Assembly: GCA_964016885.1 (NCBI GenBank)
Contig: OZ024740.1
Coordinates: 151,652,001 to 151,716,000 of the forward strand
From: Eledone cirrhosa
Lineage: Eukaryota
Reading direction: 5' to 3'
DNA: 64,000 bases
Shown here: positions 2,352-53,075 of the stretch, in pieces
How the letters are laid out: each line of letters opens with the position of its first letter
Numbering within the stretch: position 1 is the stretch's first letter
Translations under genes and position numbers: made by a program
The notes under the pieces: generated by a model
The model's database searches: none
Told to the model about the DNA's origin: nothing
Seen by the model: the letters and a program-made list of their open reading frames with translations, nothing else

Positions 2352-2410
2352 ATACTATGATCATTTCAATGACCGGGTTCCATATGAATCCGGTGATATC
2401 ATCAGGTATT
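2352..2410 (-). ncRNA. Type I hammerhead ribozyme, intact core
   Basis: Minus strand reads atac-CTGATGA-T..ACCGG..CCGGT..T-GAAA-TGATCA-TA-gtat. Stem III is palindromic (ATGATCAT); cleavage triplet AUA. Confidence 0.8.
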
Positions 2411-3723
2411 GGAATATAGCAAAGGAATATGTATAAAACCATGGGTCCGAAAACTAGCTTCTTGGTCAGTCGCCCTCAAAGTGTTGGCAACTGAATCTAC
2501 TAATGAATATCTGGTGAGGGGGCGAAGGCTTAGAATGCACTACCACCACTCCGTCAAATCTCTTTGAAGGGGAAGAAAGAAAGAAAGAAAGGGAGAAAGA
2601 AGTCAGTGTAAGGGTCATACTACATTCATGCTAGAAAATGCCGCGAAAAAATGCTACTCCAAAGAATCTATAATGGGTTTCTGTATGGTCTAATGTGTGA
2701 ACCGAAGATTGGAACGTTAAACTTATGTTGCGAGTTATAGGATGAAATTAAATTAAATTAAAAATATTAAATTGCAAAATGATAAATTGAAAAATAAGTT
2801 ATTAGAAAATTAAAGATTAAGGTAGCGAGATTTATTTATTTAATGAACTTACGGAGAGAGTCTTATATGAAAAAATTTATCTCGATAAGATATTAGGATG
2901 GGATATAGAGTAAAGATTTCGATTGAGAGTTCCTGTCAGCTCCCCCACCCCCACCACCACCACCACCATGGGTCAGCCAGTCTTCGGTGGTATCGTCCAG
3001 CGAAAGAAATGGAAATTAATTTTTCCGAGTACGCTAGCCCTCCCGGGGCTTAAGGTAGCTACGTTCCTAGAGTACTCTGAAAAATTAATTTCCATTTCTT
3101 TCGCTGGACGATACCACTCGAGCCTGGCTGACTCGTGGTGGTGGTGGGTGGGTGGGGGGGGGGGGTTGCTGACAGGAACTCTCAATCGAAATCTTTATTC
3201 TATATCCCATCCTAATATCTTATCGAGATAAATTTTTTCATATAAAACTCTCTCCGTAAGTTCATTAAATAAATCTCGCTACCTTAATCTTTAATTCTCT
3301 AATAACTTATTTTTCAATTTATCATTTTGCAATTTAATATTTTTAATTTAATTTAATTTCATCCTATAACTCGGAACATAAGTTTAACGTTCCAATCTTC
3401 GGTTCACACATTAGACCATACAGAAACCCATTATAGATTCTTTGGAGTAGCATTTTTTCGCGGCATTTTCTAGCATGAATGTAGTATGACCCTTACACTG
3501 ACTTCTTTCTCCCTTTCTTTCTTTCTTCCCCTTCAAAGAGATTTGACGGAGTGGTGGTAGTGCATTATAAGCCTTCGCCCCCTCACCAGATATTCATTAG
3601 TAGATTCAGTTGCCAACACTTTGAGGGCGACTGGCCGAGAAGCTAGTTGGTCAGTCGTCCTCTTTGTCTCTATCTTTGACTTTTCGGACCCATGGTTTTT
3701 TACATATTCCTTTGTTATATTCC

Positions 3724-3782
3724 AATACCTGATGATATCACCGGATTCATATGGAACCCGGTCATTGAAATGATCATAGTAA
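3724..3782 (+). ncRNA. Type I hammerhead ribozyme, intact core
   Basis: tac-CTGATGA(3729-3735)-tatcACCGGattcatatggaacCCGGTcatt-GAAA(3767)-TGATCA-TA-gta. Predicted cleavage after 3778. Confidence 0.8.
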
Positions 3783-3832
3783 AATAAACCTTTCAAGGAT
3801 TTACACCAGTCCAGCCTCCTGTTATTTTATTA

Positions 3833-4124
<292 letters not shown>

Positions 4125-33210: not shown

Positions 33211-33570
<360 letters not shown>

Positions 33571-35078: not shown

Positions 35079-35120
<42 letters not shown>

Positions 35121-35160
35121 TTCCAAATATTAACAAAATAGATATTCTTGTGATCAATTA

Positions 35161-35227
35161 TATTTTATTATACATATTTCAGAGGTACTGAATTAAGTTC
35201 AACAGTACGTCCTCATCAGATAAAATA
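35161..35227 (-). ncRNA. Type I hammerhead ribozyme, intact
   Basis: TATTTTAT-CTGATGA-ggac-GTACTG..CAGTAC-ctct-GAAA-TATGTA-TA-ATAAAATA; 8-bp stem I. Confidence 0.85.
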
Positions 35228-35552
35228 AAATGATACATGACATACCCTGACATGGTAGATGGTTTAAGATTTATTCAACTACCTTGAGTGCTTCCAATCT
35301 ATTGTAAAACACATTCTTTGATGTACTCATTGAATCTTGTTTAACTCATAAATATATATATATATATATATATGTGTCTATGTGTGTATGTATGTATATA
35401 TATACATATATATATATATATATGAATGTATATATAGTGTATTTTGCAATAGACTGTATGCTTAATTAAAAGCATTTCGAAGACCTTACGCTATTGTTTT
35501 AGAGTAGTGACAGTCTCACTTACTTTAAATTTTCAGAAAACAAGGGGAGATC

Positions 35553-35599
35553 AAGCTCACAGTGCTCTGTTTCGTACTTGTTGGTACTTATCAAAGCTA
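35553..35599 (-). ncRNA. Decayed hammerhead
   Basis: AGCT-tTGATaA-GTAC-caacaa-GTAC-GAAA-CAG-agca-CTG-Tg-AGCT: all three stems perfect, three core substitutions. Confidence 0.55.
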
Positions 35600-35891
35600 A
35601 GTACTCCACCTGTTTGCTGAAAATCATGAATGTTTGATTCTTATAGAATTCTAGTAAAAATATATGTATAATATATGTATGTATACATATATGTATGTAC
35701 GTGTACATACTTATATTTAAGTAACAGCCGTACTAAGAGTGGGAAATGAAATTTTATTTCATTTTTTCCATATGTATGTATATATATACATATATATATA
35801 GTAATAATAATAAATTTGAAGACTAAGATTCCGTTAAGGGTGTAAGCAGCGATTATTTGCTTAAACTTTAATCTGTTATTTTAATAAATAT

Positions 35892-35933
<42 letters not shown>

Positions 35934-35934
<1 letters not shown>

Positions 35935-36153
35935 ACGAAGGAAATGTGGTAAGGAACCAGGTGGACCAAAACGCACCAAAGTACTCAATACTTGAGGTAG
36001 TAGAGTGGGTAATAGGAACCAGTAAGACCCCGACAGCTGAGCTCAAGCCGTTTCGACGGCTAATTCTGGACTAAAAAAAAAATCTTTTTTTTTTTAGTCC
36101 AGAATTAGCCGTCGAAACGGCTTGAGCTCAGCTGTCGGGGTCTTACTGGTTCC

Positions 36154-36155
<2 letters not shown>
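35934..36155. mobile_element. Family B fold-back copy (longest hairpin)
   Basis: Essentially perfect arms about 36012-36082 / 36085-36156 around an A10/T11 centre. Confidence 0.88.
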
Positions 36156-36177
<22 letters not shown>

Positions 36178-36184
<7 letters not shown>

Positions 36185-36420
36185 AAGATAAACACAGATA
36201 TATACATATATGTGTTCAAATCGTAAGGGACCAGATTTTTTCACCTTAGCGAATCTTGTCCCTTACGCTTTGAAAACATATATGTATATATCTATGTGTA
36301 TCTTTCTTTTATATTCAATTTTAATATACGGCTCGGAAAATTCTCTTTCCTAGAGCTATTTTATTGTAAGAGACTATTTTGAGTTTCTAACCCAATATAT
36401 ACCTTTGATATATATTATGT
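36178..36420. mobile_element. Fold-back element family H
   Basis: Inverted arms about 36178-36237 / 36251-36312; the right arm has GAAAA-CATATATG-TA (HHR 3' half with palindromic stem III). Confidence 0.6.
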
Positions 36421-37272
36421 ATATATATATATCAGTGCCATGATAGACTTTTCTGTGTCCACTACAAATTTTGACCAATCCTCTTGACAACTACAATCTT
36501 CTCATATAAGGAAGTACGCCTTGAAAAGTTCGGCTATCTATTTACCAGACTAAAAAAACACTTACTTTAGTCCAGAAATAGCCGTTGAAACGGCTTGCGC
36601 TCTGCCGTCGTGGTCATACTTTCTCCTATGTATATATATATATATATATAATGATGAACGTAGGAAAATTAACAAAGAAAACAAGAGAACGAGTGAAAAC
36701 AAGGTAAAATGTGTTGTACTTCTTAGAGTACGAAAGTCCCAGGGAATAAAAATAAAGAAAAGAAGAAAAAATGAAAGGGAGAATAAAAGCAAGAAGAAAG
36801 TAAGATTTCATGTTAAAAATGTAAGCAATTGAAATTAAAGGCGGGGGGGAGATATAATCGTTCGTCACAGATTATTAATGATGAACTTAGGAAAATTAAC
36901 AAAGAGATGACAAGACAACGAACGAAAACAAGGCAAATATATATATATATATATATAGAAACTTAAGAAAATTAACAAAGAGAGGACTACGCAACGAAGG
37001 AAAAACAATTTTTTAAGGGGAAATCTTAAAAAAATAAATCTTAAAAAAATAAAAATACTAACGAAGGACCAGAGAACTCCAATATCATCGGCCGTTGAGG
37101 TGGACATGAGTTGCAATATAAACAGCAAAGTTGGCATGGCCCACCGGTTGCGTTCCTGGATTCTCAGAACTATCCAGTTCAGAGATACCCACACCATTAT
37201 CAAGGTTATCAAAGGCATATAGTGGTACGTGGTACTCTTCTATGTTTCGGCTGCGTAGGTTGTCAGGTTGTC

Positions 37273-37309
<37 letters not shown>

Positions 37310-37471
37310 GGAGGTGAGTTTTATTGTAGTACAATAAAGCAATGCAGATATCGGATAAGAACCACTCTACAATTTGTAGGGCTAGAGTATACATAATATA
37401 TAAGATCAAAATATGTTGATTTAAAACTGCACTATTCACAAGTGTTTTTTAACCTTCATATCATGTCTTCT

Positions 37472-37542
37472 TATTTTATCTGATGAAAACACAAATGTTA
37501 TTGCATGATGATATTTGTTTTTGAAATGCGCATAATAAAATA
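37472..37542 (+). ncRNA. Type I hammerhead ribozyme, intact
   Basis: TATTTTAT-CTGATGA(37480)-aaacACAAAT..ATTTGTtttt-GAAA-TGCGCA-TA-ATAAAATA; cleavage after 37534. Bounded by a short IR at 37394-37411 / 37563-37582. Confidence 0.85.
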
Positions 37543-37594
37543 CATGGAACTCTTTTAACCATCTTTTGATCTTATATATTATATATATATATAG

Positions 37595-37733
37595 ATAGAT
37601 GAAATTCTACAGGACTAGAACTGTTTCCTGAAGATTTCTAAAGAATGAAACAGTTCTAGTCTTGTAGAATCTCATCTATATTAAAACATGTATTGAGTAC
37701 CTTACTTACTGTGGTTACCTCCGATTCAATCCG

Positions 37734-37736
<3 letters not shown>
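37595..37736 (+). mobile_element. Family A fold-back copy with CTGAAGA hammerhead core
   Basis: ttc-CTGAAGA(37628)-T-TTCT-aa-AGAA-T-GAAA-CAG..TTG-TA-gaa. Confidence 0.8.
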
Positions 37737-37821
<85 letters not shown>

Positions 37822-38022
37822 ATATATATATATACAGTATATAAGGCTCTGATACCATCAACAATATAAACACAGAGCTCTCATATCTAAGAACTGACTA
37901 ACTGCCTGAAATATATATAGCAGTAAATAAAGGATTATTTGACTTATGTTTCGTCACTATATATATATATATATATATATGCAATATATTAAAAATGGAA
38001 ACTATATTTATAAAACCATATT

Positions 38023-38087
38023 TATTTCATTATATATATTTCAAGGACACCAAACCAAATTATGGTTTGCTTTCATCAGATAAAATA
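38023..38087 (-). ncRNA. Type I hammerhead ribozyme, intact
   Basis: Reverse-complement copy of 38143-38207; stem III ATATATAT. Confidence 0.85.
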
Positions 38088-38142
38088 TAATATAGATCAG
38101 TTTTATAAACAAATATTGACATACCCTTAAAGAATGCGACTA

Positions 38143-38207
38143 TATTTTATCTGATGAAAGCAAACCATAATTTGGTTTGGTGTCCTTGAAATATGTATAA
38201 TGAAATA
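38143..38207 (+). ncRNA. Type I hammerhead ribozyme, intact
   Basis: TATTTTAT-CTGATGA(38151)-AAG-CAAACCA-taatt-TGGTTTG-gtgtc-CTT-GAAA-TATGTA-TA-ATGAAATA. Confidence 0.85.
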
Positions 38208-38245
38208 AATATGGTTTTATAAATATAGTTTCCATTTGTTAATAT

Positions 38246-38306
<61 letters not shown>

Positions 38307-42887: not shown

Positions 42888-43021
42888 AACGAAGGAAATG
42901 TGGTAAGGAACCAGGTGGACCATAACGCACCAAAGTACTCAATACTTGAGGTAGTAGAGTGGGTAATAGGAACCAGTAAGACCCCGACAGCTGAGCTCAA
43001 GCCGTTTCGACGGCTAATTCT
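42888..43021 (-). mobile_element. Family B single arm
   Basis: Near-identical to 35934-36067; ends at the same gacggctaattct position. Confidence 0.85.
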
Positions 43022-47680: not shown

Positions 47681-50600
47681 CTACAGAACAATGTAGAGAG
47701 AAGGCCCATTTACACGAGCCATTCTCGCCATTTTCACCCACCTTTCATAAAACTGTCTGGGGCCAAGCATTTCTCTCTCCATCCTGATCCTTCTTCCGAA
47801 GTGGTATCGGAAGAAGTAACCAGGTGTTGGTTGGAGAGAAAGTCACCCGACCTCAGACCTTTCAGGCGCGTCCACCGAAAGACCGCCTCTGCTTCATTTC
47901 TGAAGGGAGGAGGCGGCTTGATGTTCACCACGGACTCGGCGGCCAATCGAATCGGCGCCACACTCGACAGCAGTCGTTCGACGTAGCCCCACAGATCGGC
48001 AACGCCCGGGCAGTGTACCAGTGCGTGCGCAACGGTTTTCTCGTCGCGCACGCATCTGGGACAGATCTTTTTCTCGCGGGATCCCTGCCCGGGCGCCCGT
48101 GTCTGCAGAGCTTTTCTCGAACAGGCAGAGTCCCCCGGTAGCACTGCCAGGCTAGGGACCTCTGGAAGTTGTCCATGGGTCCCGGGCCGAAAGTTCTACC
48201 GAACAGGCTGGCCAGTTTGTCCTCCTCCATGCCTAGAGACTCTCCAAGGGTGTCGTCGCCCCTGCTAGCCACCAGCCCTCTATAGAATGTCGAGATGGAT
48301 TCTCCACTGATAATTGGGTCCGCTTGCCAGAGAGCCGTGAGCGCCTGGGCACACTCGGTGTGCCAGTTGCCCAGTTTTCTCGGTCTTTGCTTCACCCAGG
48401 ATTGTAGCTCGGTGAGCGAGACGAGCTGTGGAAAGGCTCGCTTCACAAACGAGGCCCACACCGGCTGACCGGTGAGGAATACCTGTAGATGCCGTAGCCT
48501 CAATGCGTGCCTACGGAACAACAGGCACGGCATACCCAGCCCTCCTTTCGAAGGGTGCTGGCAGCAGATGAATCTCCTCACCATGGGAGGCCGCTTCTTC
48601 CAGAGGAACTGGAAGAGCATGTGCTCCATGATGGTGAGCGTTTCCTTAGGGCAAGGCACGACGGTCAGGCGGTAGTAGATGACGGACGCTATGTAAGCGT
48701 TCGCCACCTCCGCCCGACCTTTCAGTGATAGTTTGCACTTGGCCCACTTCTGGGTCAGCGCAAACACCCTGCTCGTCACCTCGCCCCAATTCTTCTCCAC
48801 CTGGAGGTCCGGTCCGAACCAGACCCCGAGCAGCTTCACCGGGCCCTCCGTCCACCGTCCGACGACACCGTCTAACGGCATCGGTTTGCCCCCCCCCCCC
48901 CGTTCCGACTTGCAAACCGACTGACTTGTCCCGGTTCAGCCTAGCCCCCATCAGCCTTTCGTATTCCTCCAGTAGGGTGGCGATCGCCACGATTTCCGAG
49001 GCGTCCGCCACCATTACTGTTACGTCGTCGGCATAGGCCGAGACCGCTTTGTGCAATCCCGGTTCCAGGGGTATGCCCCGCAGCAACTCCAACTTCCGCA
49101 GCAGTGGCTCGAGAGCCAATACGTACAGAATGGAGGAGAGGGGGCACCCCTGCCTGATGGACCGGCTGATTTGAAACGGCTCCGAGAGGTAGCCGTTTAA
49201 CCCTAGAGCAGACGTTGCCACTGTGCATGGCAGAAATCCCCCCCCCCTGAAAACGGGTCCGAAGCCCGCCGCCGCTAGCACCGCATCCAGGTAACCATGG
49301 TCGACCCTATCGAACGTCTTAGATTGATCCAAGTTGATCAGGGCCCCACCAAAGCCGGGTTCGTTCCCAACCCTCTCTACGATGTATCGCATGAGGTGGA
49401 GGTTGTCGTGAATGGACCTGGACGGGATAGCGCATGACTGCGCGTCTCCCACCAAGCAATCCACCACAAGCGCCAACCTCTTCGCTAACACCTTGGCCAA
49501 AATCTGTAACTCTGCATTCAGCAGAGTTATGGGCCTAAAGTTACTTAAGTCGTCCCCCTTGCTCTCGTCCTTCCTCACTAGCGTGACTACGCCCTTGGTC
49601 ACAGAACAGGGAATTCTCCCGTTCTGTTGCCAGTTGCAATAGACAGCCTCGAGGAGTTTGGAGAACAAGATCGGCATAGCTAAATAAAGTTCGTATGGTA
49701 GACCATCGAGACCCGGAGATTTGCGCCTGCTGCATTGGCTGAGCGCTTCCCCGATTTCAGTGGCTGTGATTGGCTTTTCGCAGCACTCCGCTTCGCCGCT
49801 CGAAAGACGCGGTAGACCGTCGAGGTATGGACCGAAGTCAACATCCCCGCCGCCTCCGAACGGTCGAGCAAAGTGCCTTTAAAAGGCCTCGCACATCCGC
49901 TCAAGTTCAAGGATCACCCGTCCATCCTGGTCTCGCAAAGACCGAATGGTGGATTTAATCCCACTCTTGGCTTCTGTCACGCGGGCCCTAAACAGCTTTG
50001 GTCCCCTCGTTTCCTAAAGCACGTATTTTACTTCGGACAACGCAGCCTTCGTGCTTCGCGTCAAAGAACTGGCACAACGCCGTTCTCGACGCTAACACTC
50101 TGGCCACGTCTCCGCTCATAATCGCCTCTTCTAGTTTATCTGTCAACTCCCTTTCCCTCCTATTTTTATTCGCCGCTAGTTCCTTACTGTAATCTATCGA
50201 ACTTACTCTAATCTCTCTCTTTAGAGATACCCACCACCTGCTGTTGACGATCGCACCCGTCACCGCATCTTAACTAAGCTACTAATCCGGTTCCTGTAAG
50301 CTTCCTTTGCCGGCAAGGACAAGTTCATCTTCCAGTAACCGGGACCCTGTCTATGCGTTCTATCAAGGTTGACCACGCAGGTCACTAATTTGTGATCTGA
50401 ATAGCCAACCATGAGCAATTCTGGACAACTAAATATGTCCCTATCCTTACTCCTAACCAAAAACCTATCTAGGTACGATCTAGATTGACCACTGCGGTTT
50501 GCCCAGGTCCAGGTTGGCACAGTTGGAAAATCTAGTCGAAATCTATCGACCAGGTCGTATCGATCGAGTAACCCCTTGAGGCTGCTACACCCCCCCCCCC

Positions 50601-51076
50601 CTATCGGGACATGCCCCTGCATAGTCCCAACGCGCATCTAGGATTCCATTCCAGTCCCCCACTAAAAGCAGGGAACGCGACGTTCCTAGAAAAGTCTCCA
50701 GACGCTGGAAGAAGTCGGCTCTTTCAGCCCCGAAGGGGGCATAAAGACTGACCAGTCTGAAAGCCCCGCCTTCACCGCCTCCGACGTCCAGCACCAGTAA
50801 TCGACCCCCGGGTCCGAGTGAACAATCTGTACGTTTATCCAGCCAGACGTTTATCCAGCAGTACGGCAACCCCACCCCGCCTCCGGGTTGACAGAGAAAT
50901 GCGTGCATCTCAAAGTCATCGAAGGCGGGAGCCAGCTGTCGCACGCTGCTGATCCGACTCTCGCAAACAACCATCACATCTATACTTCGTTACCGGAGGT
51001 CACTTAGAAGCTTTGCTTGCTTCCAAGCTGAGCCCAGGCCACGCGCATTCAAACAACCAACTCTCAGTTGATCTAT
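47681..51076 (-). pseudogene. ORF2: AP endonuclease, reverse transcriptase, C-terminal zinc knuckle (frameshifted)
   Basis: CLNARGL, VSLYAP, LVGDWN, SYLDRF, GYSDH, PGLDGLPYELY, NFRPITLLN, LDQSKTFDRV, IRQGCPLS, YADD (49024-49035), KLLGVWFG, GGLG and CPRC..E.TVAHALVHC. Confidence 0.93.
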
Positions 51077-53075
51077 TTTGGTGTTGAAAGTGAAGAAAGA
51101 AAAGCACCTACCTCTCCGGGTTGTGTAATTTCCATGGGGTCGGGTGTGTTGGGTGGAGGGATATTTTGTGGTGGTGTGGGTGTATCCGAGTGTGGTAGGG
51201 TTGGGGTATTTGGAGTTGTGTCAGGGAGAGAGGAGGTTATGGGGAAATCTTTCAAGAGGACGCGATTTAACGGTTTTAAAAAGGGGGGGGCTCACGTCCT
51301 GTTTAAATTATTCTTTTAAGGAACGATAAAGGTCCAGAGGGACGTTTATCATTTTTAAATGGGTGAAGTTCTCTGTTGAGATAAAGTTTGGCCCTTCGGT
51401 CTGCACCAAAGTTTATTAATTTAAACAGTTTTTTGTTTTCTTTATTTATATATGTATATGTGTTTTGTAAAGTCTTTTTTTTGTGATGCTGTCAATGTTT
51501 CGAAGGGGGGAGGCGCACATTTATTTTTGTTTGTCGTGGGTGGGGTGTTTTTGATTGGAGTTGGTGTTTGTGTGTGGGTTATTTGTTTTGTGGTGTGCCG
51601 GGTGGGTGCTTTCGTTTTTTCCTTTTAACTTGTCTGAAGGCTTCTCCTCCTTCTTCTTCAGAAGTTGGGGGAAAACTCTTCAGCGCTAGGTGGGAGGGAC
51701 GTGGTGTCTGGTTGTTGTTTTTTGCGGGAGGGGTAGAATTGTTGCTGTTTTTTTTATTTTTTGTTTGGAATGTGTTTTATGGTGGTGGTGGTGATGTTTG
51801 TGTCGTGCTTGTGGTTGGTGATGGTGGTGGTGATGTTTGTGTTGTGCTTGTGGTTGGTGATGGTGGTGGTGATTTTTGTGTAGTGCTTGTGTTTTGTGGT
51901 GTCTGTATTTTGTTTGCTGTGTGTGTTGATGGTGTTAGTGTATTTTTGGAGGTGGGTGGTGTTGGTGTACTGTTTGTGGTGGGTGTGGGCAATAGTCCTT
52001 TTTGGGGGATACGATTCGGGCAGTTAGCCTTAACGTGTCCCCTTCCATGCATGAATAGCATGCTGGTCTTCTCCCCTCTACAATTATATATATTGGGGTG
52101 AGGTCATCCAACCAGATGCGATCCGGGATTTGCGCTATTCTTTCGGGCCTCATTTGTACTAGTAGGTCGAGGCCCATTCCCAGGAACGCATCTCCAGATG
52201 CCTTCCCCATTGACAGCACTGTGTCCTCGCCCATGTCTATGAAGCCAGCAATAGCCCACCAGAAGTCGATTATGGGCAGCATTGTCTGTATTTTGATTCT
52301 CTGAGTTCTTCTACCCATGTAGGAGGGATAGAAGCTGTATGCTGTTGATGTGAGTGGGCTTACGGAAAGCCTCTGTGCTGTTTCTTTGTCTTTTGTTAAA
52401 CAGAAATGCTGCCATAGAGTCGGTCCTTTCGTATGAAGAGAATATTCTTCATATGGTCTTTTAGGACCAACTCTATCTCCCTTTGGGTGGGCTGTGCTGG
52501 CTTCCTTGTGTTGTTTAGGATTGTTCTAAACAGAACAGTCTTTTCTTGTCTCGTTTTCTTGAATTCTGGGGGGGAATTAATGGAAAACATTCCGTTCTCC
52601 CCCAAGACTATGTGCTTTTTTGCTTCTGCCAGTTTCTCTCTGGCGGCAGTTAAGTCAATAGGTGTATATGTGATTGATTTTTTTGTTGTCTGGGCGAAAG
52701 TTGTTTTTGTTGTGTTTGTGTTATTCATGTTGGTGTATTCGTTCACATTTTTTTCCCTTTGGGGTTAGACTCCATTTTTTCAAAGTCTTCACTTATATTT
52801 TCATTATCCAAGAGACTTGTAGTCACAGCTACTACTTCTCTTTCACCTTTGCTGGTGGGCGTGGCGCCGTGAAAAGTCGAAACGGCATCCATTAATTTTG
52901 GCAATTTCTCCGAGTTAATTTTTTTTCACATTTTTTCATTAGGGTTAGGTTCCATTTTTTCAATGTTTCTAATAAGCATTATTCTTTCAGTAGGGTGGCT
53001 TGTTGCCTCAGCTACCCGCTCTCCTTCAGTTTGTGTAGTGGGCGTGTCATCGTTACCTGTGGTAATGGCTTCCAT
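51073..53075 (-). pseudogene. ORF1: gag-like protein with CCHC knuckle and Pro/Thr-rich tail (frameshifted)
   Basis: Joining frames gives VEGRRPACYSC/HGRGHVKANCP (CX2CX4HX4C), a 39-bp repeat SPPPSPTTSTTQT, and an ATG at 53075. Confidence 0.8.

What the first reader, a model, noticed from the sequence alone, without database searches (positions are those of the whole stretch)
35161..38207. Three ribozymes share an identical stem I but have unrelated stem II
Seen: 35161(-), 37472(+) and 38023/38143 all have TATTTTAT-CTGATGA...GAAA-T(4 nt)A-TA-AT(A/G)AAATA. Each stem II differs entirely yet folds, and stem III stays (near-)palindromic (ATGCGCAT, ATATATAT, ATATGTAT). This amounts to natural covariation supporting function. 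Known: palindromic stem III allows dimeric HHR folding. These are the best candidates for activity assays.
Basis: partly seen in the sequence, partly recalled or inferred. Interest (0 to 1): 0.75.

Follow-up and report, generated by a model that had tools for sequence, protein, structure and literature searches.

The report
Transposon hammerheads overlapping a poly(A) signal
These hammerhead RNA motifs are end pieces of three related, very abundant jumping-gene families of a known kind, and the helix they share spells AAUAAA, likely a polyadenylation signal, at or just after the predicted self-cut, so one short stretch would decide between a tailed message and a cut RNA.

Summary
The four motifs are real type I hammerheads, but they are truncated end fragments of three paralogous Hydra-clade Penelope-like retrotransposon families (at least 83,000 related copies genome-wide). 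38023/38143 are two arms of one insertion. Stem II is not unrelated: all families keep 3 pairs, a C·C/C·U mismatch, then a helix. Stem III's palindrome covaries at positions that can pair only between two copies, fitting the known dimer model.

New here is why stem I is frozen although synonymous sites are saturated. Its 3' strand spells AAUAAA, and the predicted cut is A^AUAAA. Families B and C, with no spare hexamer, keep it (98 and 92 of 100 copies). Family A/D, with a spare 5 nt on, lost it in 79 of 100. Sister lineages with other stems carry A(A/U)UAAA just downstream (10 of 11 clusters, 0.94 expected).

It likely acts as a poly(A) signal (about 50%). No RNA data were found, and the ORF is not depleted of hexamers. 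The scan already noted the Hydra identity, mismatch, palindrome and tail hairpins elsewhere in this genome, and a hexamer in a Hydra hammerhead of another genome. 37472 is the best assay candidate, 38023/38143 the worst.

The parts
35112..35277 (-). Family C pLTR fragment, short-end arm, ending in (TA)n
   Evidence: 92% to the pLTR of tandem element L108; L108 = hammerhead, Hydra-type ORF, hammerhead, unit 4543 nt
35161..35227 (-). Type I hammerhead, family C; predicted cut between 35169 and 35168
35164..35169 (-). AATAAA spanning the predicted cut (A^AUAAA)
   Evidence: sequence; kept in 92 of 100 listed family-C copies (hand count)
35284..35350 (+). Family C long-tail arm in the opposite orientation, ending in (TA)n
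   Evidence: 92-93% to the L108 tail
37305..37415 (-). Family B long-tail arm
   Evidence: 95% to the L065 tail
37411..37587 (+). Family B pLTR fragment, short-end arm, ending in (TA)n
   Evidence: 97% to L065; L065 = hammerhead, intact 798-aa Hydra-type ORF, hammerhead, unit 3709 nt
37472..37542 (+). Type I hammerhead, family B; predicted cut between 37534 and 37535; best predicted double hammerhead
37534..37539 (+). AATAAA spanning the predicted cut
   Evidence: sequence; kept in 98 of 100 listed family-B copies (hand count)
37981..38140 (-). Family A pLTR fragment, minus arm of an inverted two-armed insertion
   Evidence: 81% to L064; inverted repeat I1; L064 = hammerhead, broken Hydra-type ORF, hammerhead, unit 3676 nt
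38023..38087 (-). Type I hammerhead, family A, mis-registered stem II; spare AATAAA at 38021-38026
38141..38250 (+). Family A pLTR fragment, plus arm, ending in (TA)n
   Evidence: 85% to L064, 93% to L026
38143..38207 (+). Type I hammerhead, family A; predicted cut between 38199 and 38200; first hexamer lost, spare AATAAA at 38204-38209
37843..37960 (+). Remnant of sister family E (different stem I) whose stem II is deleted; AATAAA kept just after stem I
   Evidence: 71% to L153 with gaps, sequence read

Best explanation
The motifs are the hammerheads in the terminal repeats of three paralogous Hydra-clade Penelope-like retrotransposon families, left here as truncated two-armed insertions in TA repeats, and their stem I is likely frozen because its 3' strand also spells AAUAAA, likely the element's polyadenylation signal, which the predicted cut would split. 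Shown: the element context, the common stem II plan, the hexamer and its pattern of keeping and loss. Predicted: a lone ribozyme cannot close its 2-pair stem III, so a transcript would mostly stay uncut and could be polyadenylated and translated. Inferred: when two copies meet (the two ends of a tandem transcript), stems I and III would form between them, likely helped by the element's own protein as in PAc. Cutting at A^AUAAA would then remove the signal and give a unit-length, tail-less RNA. Inferred: copying starts about 40-55 or 130-150 nt past the cut site, so the template would be read-through or circular RNA, not the polyadenylated message. Odds by step: Hydra-PLE hammerheads 0.97; cleavage needs a dimer and/or protein 0.7; the hexamer is a functional signal that froze stem I 0.75; that signal is a poly(A) signal 0.5.
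For: Context: each family has its own hammerhead-ORF-hammerhead element (A L064, B L065, C L108; C also L109, L110, L121). RT-core identity is A-B 216/354, A-C 225/347, B-C 205/353; family E, with another stem I, is outside at 50-53% (tree split 0.973). Four-fold sites are saturated (38/100, 35/91, 28/100), yet the main A, B and C forms share 16 of 16 stem I bases and identity stops at the stem edges. Hexamer: B 98/100 and C 92/100 keep the first AATAAA. A/D, with a spare 5 nt on, lost it in 79/100 but keeps at least one in 94/100 (hand counts). The true G-C swap in stem I occurs in A/D (3 copies); B's common variant is on the 5' strand and C's at pair 8, both outside the hexamer. A(A/T)TAAA lies within 20 nt of the cut in 10 of 11 mismatch-class clusters (0.94 expected by shuffling), at offsets 0-14 and as both AATAAA and ATTAAA, against 5 of 20 other hammerhead clusters (1.1 expected; four of the five are one related group). 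In 25 held-out copies it was found in 14 of 17 flagged mismatch-class and 1 of 8 others. Dimer: closing stem III costs about 3 kcal/mol in the monomer (P<=0.001); the family-B double hammerhead is -32.7 against -21.2 for two monomers and is nearly the cofold minimum. 96 of 100 listed loops are self-complementary (hand count). Two 3' ends per family.
Against: No cleavage, expression or poly(A) data. The element body is not depleted of hexamers: the intact B ORF holds 7 AATAAA against 5.9 expected, and no UTR shows depletion. No poly(A)-ended A/D copies (2 against 2 control; low power). Six of 100 A/D copies lack both hexamers, four of them as ATGAAATAGAT, possibly a subfamily. A/D is more diverse than B or C, so more changes are expected there anyway. 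The lineages are related, so 10 of 11 is not 11 independent trials. In the E group the hexamer travels with a downstream block and sits up to 20 nt away. Only 3 of 25 published Hydra hammerheads show the hexamer in the listed 3' flank (by eye). The double hammerhead is only marginally favoured for C (-21.6 vs -20.2) and A (-24.2 vs -21.6) and is not their cofold minimum. How the upstream repeat's hexamer avoids early polyadenylation is unexplained.
Confidence: 0.5

Rival explanations
1. The hexamer or the AU helix is a binding site for the element's RT-endonuclease protein (or a contact for the unpaired C in stem II), not a poly(A) signal; the protein would load here, switch the ribozyme on and start copying just downstream.
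For: The PAc hammerhead cuts only with its protein, and RT starts downstream of it (PMC11167929). The hexamer and the C.Y mismatch occur in the same lineages. Hexamers are not avoided in the ORF. The signal lies within about 50 nt of the short 3' end.
Against: The hexamer is base-paired inside stem I in B and C but 5-20 nt outside it in E, G, H, I and K, which is hard to square with a fixed tertiary contact. The two forms seen, AATAAA and ATTAAA, are the two commonest metazoan poly(A) hexamers (recalled, established knowledge), while the bases on both sides vary.
Confidence: 0.25
2. Stem I is simply ancestral and slow to change because a short helix next to the core tolerates no mismatch; AATAAA is an accident of AT-rich sequence.
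For: A, B, C and D form one clade. Most stem I changes are single A-to-G steps to G.U. Local A+T is about 70-75%. No hexamer depletion elsewhere.
Against: Most stem II pairs next to the same core changed between A, B and C (pairs 1-3, 5, 6, 8, 9), while stem I pairs did not. Lineages with wholly different stems I still carry the hexamer, at shifted offsets, ten times above the shuffle expectation. Hexamer positions vary at subfamily level only where a spare exists.
Confidence: 0.15
3. Stem I is shared so that ribozymes of different families can form mixed dimers (stems I and III are swapped between partners in a double hammerhead).
For: A/C stem III palindromes cross-pair 8 of 8, and the A-C dimer scores -22.9 against -20.9 for the monomers.
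Against: Family B keeps the same stem I, but its GCGC palindrome pairs only 7 of 8 with A or C, for a gain under 1 kcal/mol. A/D subfamilies change stem I freely.
Confidence: 0.06
4. The four copies are host-domesticated ribozymes acting at this locus, with stem II independently evolved.
For: Cores are intact in 4 of 4. Two lie on each strand within 3 kb.
Against: They match multi-thousand-copy families at 81-97% and end at the families' fixed ends in (TA)n. One such motif is expected every 36 kb. The A pair is mis-folded and self-annealing.
Confidence: 0.03

Closest known systems
Hydra clade of C-terminal EN+ Penelope-like elements (Craig et al. 2021, PMC8557442), including Hydra-1_Obim
   Same: Single RT-EN ORF with DKT, YRDDG, CxCX5C, CxxC and CxH motifs; hammerhead near the 3' end; (TA)n targets; partial tandems, inverted truncated copies and a one-sided tail.
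   Different: Units are 3.7-4.5 kb against under 3 kb. The hammerhead has a 26-36-nt stem II with a fixed C.Y mismatch, no extra base between 9 and 10.1, an 8-nt stem III palindrome and AAUAAA at the cut. None of the 25 listed Hydra hammerheads is given with such a stem II. The tail is about 90-100 nt, not 30-40.
PLE minimal/palindromic-helix-III hammerheads acting as dimers (Cervera and de la Pena 2014, PMC4209133; Lunse et al., known only through the review PMC6765202)
   Same: Type I, in both terminal repeats, long helix II, short palindromic helix III, many families per genome with compensatory changes.
   Different: Helix I has 8 pairs and is conserved in sequence rather than 4-5 variable pairs; G10.1-C11.1 is usually replaced by A-U or G.U; overlap with a poly(A) hexamer is not mentioned in the parts read.
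PAc (Poseidon, Anolis) protein-assisted hammerhead (Frangieh et al. 2024, PMC11167929)
   Same: Copying starts at two sites downstream of the hammerhead, giving two 3' ends.
   Different: Another clade; there the ORF starts inside the hammerhead, here 195-220 nt past the cut; protein dependence is untested here.
CLEC2 3'-UTR hammerhead (as described in review PMC6765202)
   Same: A hammerhead cut that separates the message from its polyadenylation signal.
   Different: A split type III motif (type recalled) in a host gene that cuts upstream of the signal; here the signal is part of the ribozyme helix of a retrotransposon and would be cut through.
Animal non-LTR retrozymes (PMC7229834; bioRxiv 10.64898/2026.07.22.740005)
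   Same: Type I hammerheads, dimer-dependent in amphibians, very high copy number.
   Different: Retrozymes are short non-coding tandem units; families A, B and C belong to multi-kb protein-coding elements.

Membership tests
Type I hammerhead ribozyme | Core CUGANGA...GAAA with NUH triplet | tested here: met
   AUA triplet in all four
Type I hammerhead ribozyme | Three helices, open at stem I, supported by covariation | tested here: met
   slid registers pair 37-45% against 93%
Type I hammerhead ribozyme | Match to an Rfam hammerhead model | tested here: not met
   no hit at E<=10 on the four motifs (a model limit is the likely cause)
Type I hammerhead ribozyme | Loop I-loop II tertiary contact of canonical type I motifs | tested here: inconclusive
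   no shared loop II sequence or fixed stem I bulge seen; only the C.Y mismatch is conserved
Type I hammerhead ribozyme | Self-cleavage | not testable with these tools
   needs an assay
Dimeric PLE hammerhead | Short self-complementary helix III, unstable as monomer | tested here: met
Dimeric PLE hammerhead | Two copies on one transcript | tested here: met
   in tandem parents L064, L065, L108; not met for the window remnants
Hydra-clade PLE | RT with DKT motif and C-terminal GIY-YIG-type EN with CxCX5C, CxxC, CxH and no CCHH | tested here: met
   motifs read in the L065 ORF against the paper's section and alignment; Pfam and PDB give no hit
Hydra-clade PLE | Placement in the clade by a tree with reference PLEs | not tested
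   tree built only from this genome's elements
Hydra-clade PLE | pLTRs, inverted truncated copies, tail, (TA)n target | tested here: met
Non-LTR retrozyme | Short non-coding tandem unit | tested here: not met
   A, B and C units are 3.7-4.5 kb with an ORF
Metazoan polyadenylation signal | A(A/U)UAAA hexamer conserved beyond chance | tested here: met
Metazoan polyadenylation signal | Poly(A) added 10-30 nt downstream | not testable with these tools
   no RNA reads; genomic proxy negative
Metazoan polyadenylation signal | U/GU-rich downstream element; avoidance of upstream signals | tested here: inconclusive
   U-rich stretches seen by eye, not scored; no depletion upstream

The most novel reading that the evidence does not exclude
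A retrotransposon ribozyme whose scissile bond lies inside its own poly(A) signal acts as a fate switch. Unfolded or alone, the RNA is polyadenylated and translated. Once two ends pair (or the protein binds), stem I hides AAUAAA and the cut destroys it, committing the RNA to the tail-less or circular template route. This would give PLE hammerheads a concrete job.
Probability: 0.3. Interest if true: 0.8.

Novelty: new variant of a known kind. Interest (0 to 1): 0.5.

Why it matters
What hammerheads do in Penelope-like elements is open: Craig et al. call it unclear, and Frangieh et al. found cleavage dispensable for insertion in vitro. A poly(A) hexamer at the cut, kept under a 'lose it only if there is a spare' pattern across tens of thousands of copies, points to a testable role in 3'-end choice rather than in integration. 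The families also form a natural mutant series (hexamer in or out of the stem, strong or weak palindrome, fixed C.Y mismatch) for dimeric hammerhead work. The window's copies themselves are ordinary dead remnants.

Tried and rejected
Rfam at gathering score and at E<=10: no hammerhead hit on the four motifs. Pfam and PDB sequences: no informative hit for the ORF. Poly(A)-ended genomic copies: 2 against 2 control. Hexamer depletion in ORFs and UTRs: none. ORFs downstream of family-C hammerheads in L112 and L024, and of a family-E one in L135, proved to be other elements beyond a (TA)n tract and were dropped as family links. Family G could not be tied to an ORF: the 3.1-kb tandem L188 has no hit, and the EN in L163 is A-like. 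Mixed-family dimers as the cause of the shared stem I: rejected because B is insulated. 'Stem I must stay weak, never G-C': rejected by the G-C swap in three D copies. Gene conversion between families: rejected because identity stops at both stem edges and skips stem II. Pairing of the hexamer with loop II or upstream U-tracts: no consistent partner by eye. A splice donor-like GGGTATGT upstream in A, C and D is not seen in B or E, so an intronic-ribozyme model was not pursued. Lunse et al. (PMC5785218) is not held. Rows dropped: one mis-parsed cluster and all 1-copy clusters before the 23-subfamily table; family D copies were filtered out by a Watson-Crick filter.

Full report
Observation. The 15-mer TATTTTATCTGATGA occurs 4 times in the window against 0.02 expected, and 45,251 times in the 3.0-Gb genome against 7 for the control. 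The 3' half with a free 4-nt loop occurs 83,205 times against 67. Rfam misses all four. 38023 and 38143 are the arms of one inverted repeat. The host is an animal with a microsatellite-rich genome; 'octopus-like' is my inference and was not tested.

What they belong to. Each motif type was traced to a tandem element with the ribozyme at both ends. Family B (37472): L065, intact 798-aa ORF, unit 3709 nt. Family A (38023/38143): L064, broken ORF, 3676 nt. Family C (35161): L108, broken ORF, 4543 nt, with matching ORF pieces upstream of C ribozymes in L109, L110 and L121. The ORF carries DKT, YRDDG, CxCX5C, CxxC and CxH, the marks of the Hydra clade. The top 122 scored genomic matches to its C-terminal part are 94-100% identical, so B is young. 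Copies end at two places per family: about +48-52 and +137-146 (A/D), +38-46 and +129-136 (B), +51-55 and +147-151 (C) after the predicted cut. The window holds a C short arm with an opposed tail arm, a B tail arm with an opposed short arm, and two opposed A short arms, all bounded by (TA)n. Exact-anchor counts are 50,418 (A/D), 21,762 (B) and 8,723 (C).

Stem II is homologous. In 23 subfamily consensuses (clusters of 2 or more among 274 copies; one mis-parse and the singletons left out), pair 4 is never paired (CC 21, CT 2). Pairs 1-3 and 5-8 are paired in 149 of 161 cells, against 107 +/- 6 when 3' strands are shuffled and 37-45% in slid registers. At copy level pair 4 is pyrimidine-pyrimidine in 270 of 274. 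On a 20-row alignment, 13 of 19 pairs change on both sides and column 21/54 is unpaired in 20 of 20. The rows are related, and families C, E and G were sampled with patterns that include part of stem II, so these counts show the pattern but are not p-values. I saw this before querying earlier notes; two notes report the same mismatch.

Stem III fits the dimer model. A hairpin can form only two A-U pairs, costing about 3 kcal/mol, with pairing probability at most 0.001. The inner four bases are still self-complementary: 96 of 100 listed copies (hand count), with A-U/G-C at one pair and U-A, U.G, A-U or C-G at the other. That is only three or four independent states. The double hammerhead is strongly favoured for B (-32.7 against -21.2 kcal/mol), marginal for C and typical A, and disfavoured for the window's A copy (-14.0 against -23.2), which would also anneal to its own antisense arm. 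Dimer dependence and low in vitro activity of PLE hammerheads are published (PMC4209133, parts 1-2 of 4 read; review PMC6765202, passages). PAc cuts only with its protein, and its cut is not needed for insertion in vitro (PMC11167929, parts 1-2 of 4).

Why stem I is the same. A, B and C share 58-65% of RT-core residues and 28-38% of four-fold sites, yet their main forms share all 16 stem I bases, with unlike sequence just outside. The last base before the cut plus the next five read AATAAA. B and C have no second hexamer nearby and keep it in 98 and 92 of 100 listed copies; their common stem I variants lie outside it. A/D has a spare five bases on. It lost the first hexamer in 79 of 100, by at least four different changes including a true G-C swap, and keeps at least one hexamer in 94 of 100 (hand counts). 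Sister lineages with other stems I carry AATAAA or ATTAAA 5-14 nt after the cut: 10 of 11 mismatch-class clusters against 0.94 expected, and 5 of 20 other clusters against 1.1. Among 25 held-out copies the figures were 14 of 17 and 1 of 8. That one, and one miss among the 8, belong to the mismatch class by eye. Two E-group copies (one from each group) have the hexamer at +20, past my window.

Against this. The ORF and UTRs are not depleted of hexamers. No poly(A)-ended copies were found. Six of 100 A/D copies lack both hexamers. A/D is the more diverse group. Only 3 of 25 published Hydra hammerheads show the hexamer in 20 nt of flank (by eye, supplement part 2). A protein-binding role fits the same data, so I give the poly(A) reading 0.5.

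Likely working. Shown: context, structure, conservation pattern. Predicted: poor monomer folding. Inferred: uncut RNA is polyadenylated and translated; pairing of two repeats, probably with the protein, cuts A^AUAAA; copying starts beyond the cut on read-through or circular RNA, since both insertion ends lie past any poly(A) site. Small RCTC...GAGY hairpins start 6-12 nt beyond the short ends in A, B and C and beyond the long ends in A and C; the second was not found intact in the B copy examined.

In print. 'hammerhead, Penelope, octopus' and 'hammerhead ribozyme, octopus' gave only Craig et al. as relevant. 'hammerhead ribozyme, stem II, C-C mismatch' gave 0 papers. 'Penelope, polyadenylation signal, hammerhead', 'hammerhead, AAUAAA, retrotransposon' and 'Penelope-like, polyadenylat, pLTR' gave nothing on this overlap (listings only, apart from the review). 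The nearest case is CLEC2 (passage). Also read: PMC8557442 (passages, section 11, supplement searches and part 2), PMC7229834 (passages), PMC2377424 (passages, no mention of polyadenylation), bioRxiv 2026.07.22.740005 (parts 1-2 of 5; its supplements are closed). Lunse et al. and most subscription papers could not be read and may bear on the dimer and mismatch claims. One unreviewed note of this scan proposes a poly(A) hexamer inside stem II of a Hydra hammerhead in another genome; I found it after forming the idea and did not test it.

Verdict. A new variant of a known kind. The copies here are dead remnants. The lead worth testing is the hexamer at the cut site.

Noticed in passing
window 2352-2409 (-); also 3681-3834 (+) and 33308-33476 (-): Family G hammerhead (4-pair stem I, same C.C mismatch, TGATCA loop, AATAAA right after the stem); 4,394 exact copies of its anchor; a 3.1-kb tandem unit (L188) gave no Hydra ORF hit, so it may be non-autonomous.
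   Followed up: partly
window 35535-35612 (-): Decayed hammerhead-like motif with a short perfect stem II, weak HH9 hit (21.4 bits, E 0.054); first core box mutated.
   Followed up: no
window 37843-37960 (+): Family E copy in which stem II is cleanly deleted between the GA of the core and GAAA; family E has at least 3,771 copies.
   Followed up: partly
L114:1253-1410 (G000:C1 about 63,697,750-63,697,900): Three head-to-tail 65-nt repeats holding only the 5' half of the family C hammerhead, restarting at a shared AAC; looks like repeated template slippage.
   Followed up: no
25-45 nt upstream of stem I in families A, C, D (e.g. window 35240-35248, -): Conserved GGGTATGTC, like a splice donor; not seen in B or E.
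   Followed up: no
window 36012-36156 and 36552-36629: Perfect 71-nt inverted repeat of another abundant element end (shared with 42,900-43,000), GC-rich, no intact hammerhead core.
   Followed up: no
window 47925-52764 (-): Fragmented non-LTR retrotransposon with endonuclease-like, RT-like and ORF1-like frames (labels by eye).
   Followed up: no
L076:2065-2320: The inversion junction of a full-length B insertion falls at the GAAA of the upstream ribozyme; several 'no core' copies also break there.
   Followed up: no
L118, L225, L277, L281: Further lineages with the same stem I and other stem II sequences, also carrying the hexamer (first or spare).
   Followed up: partly
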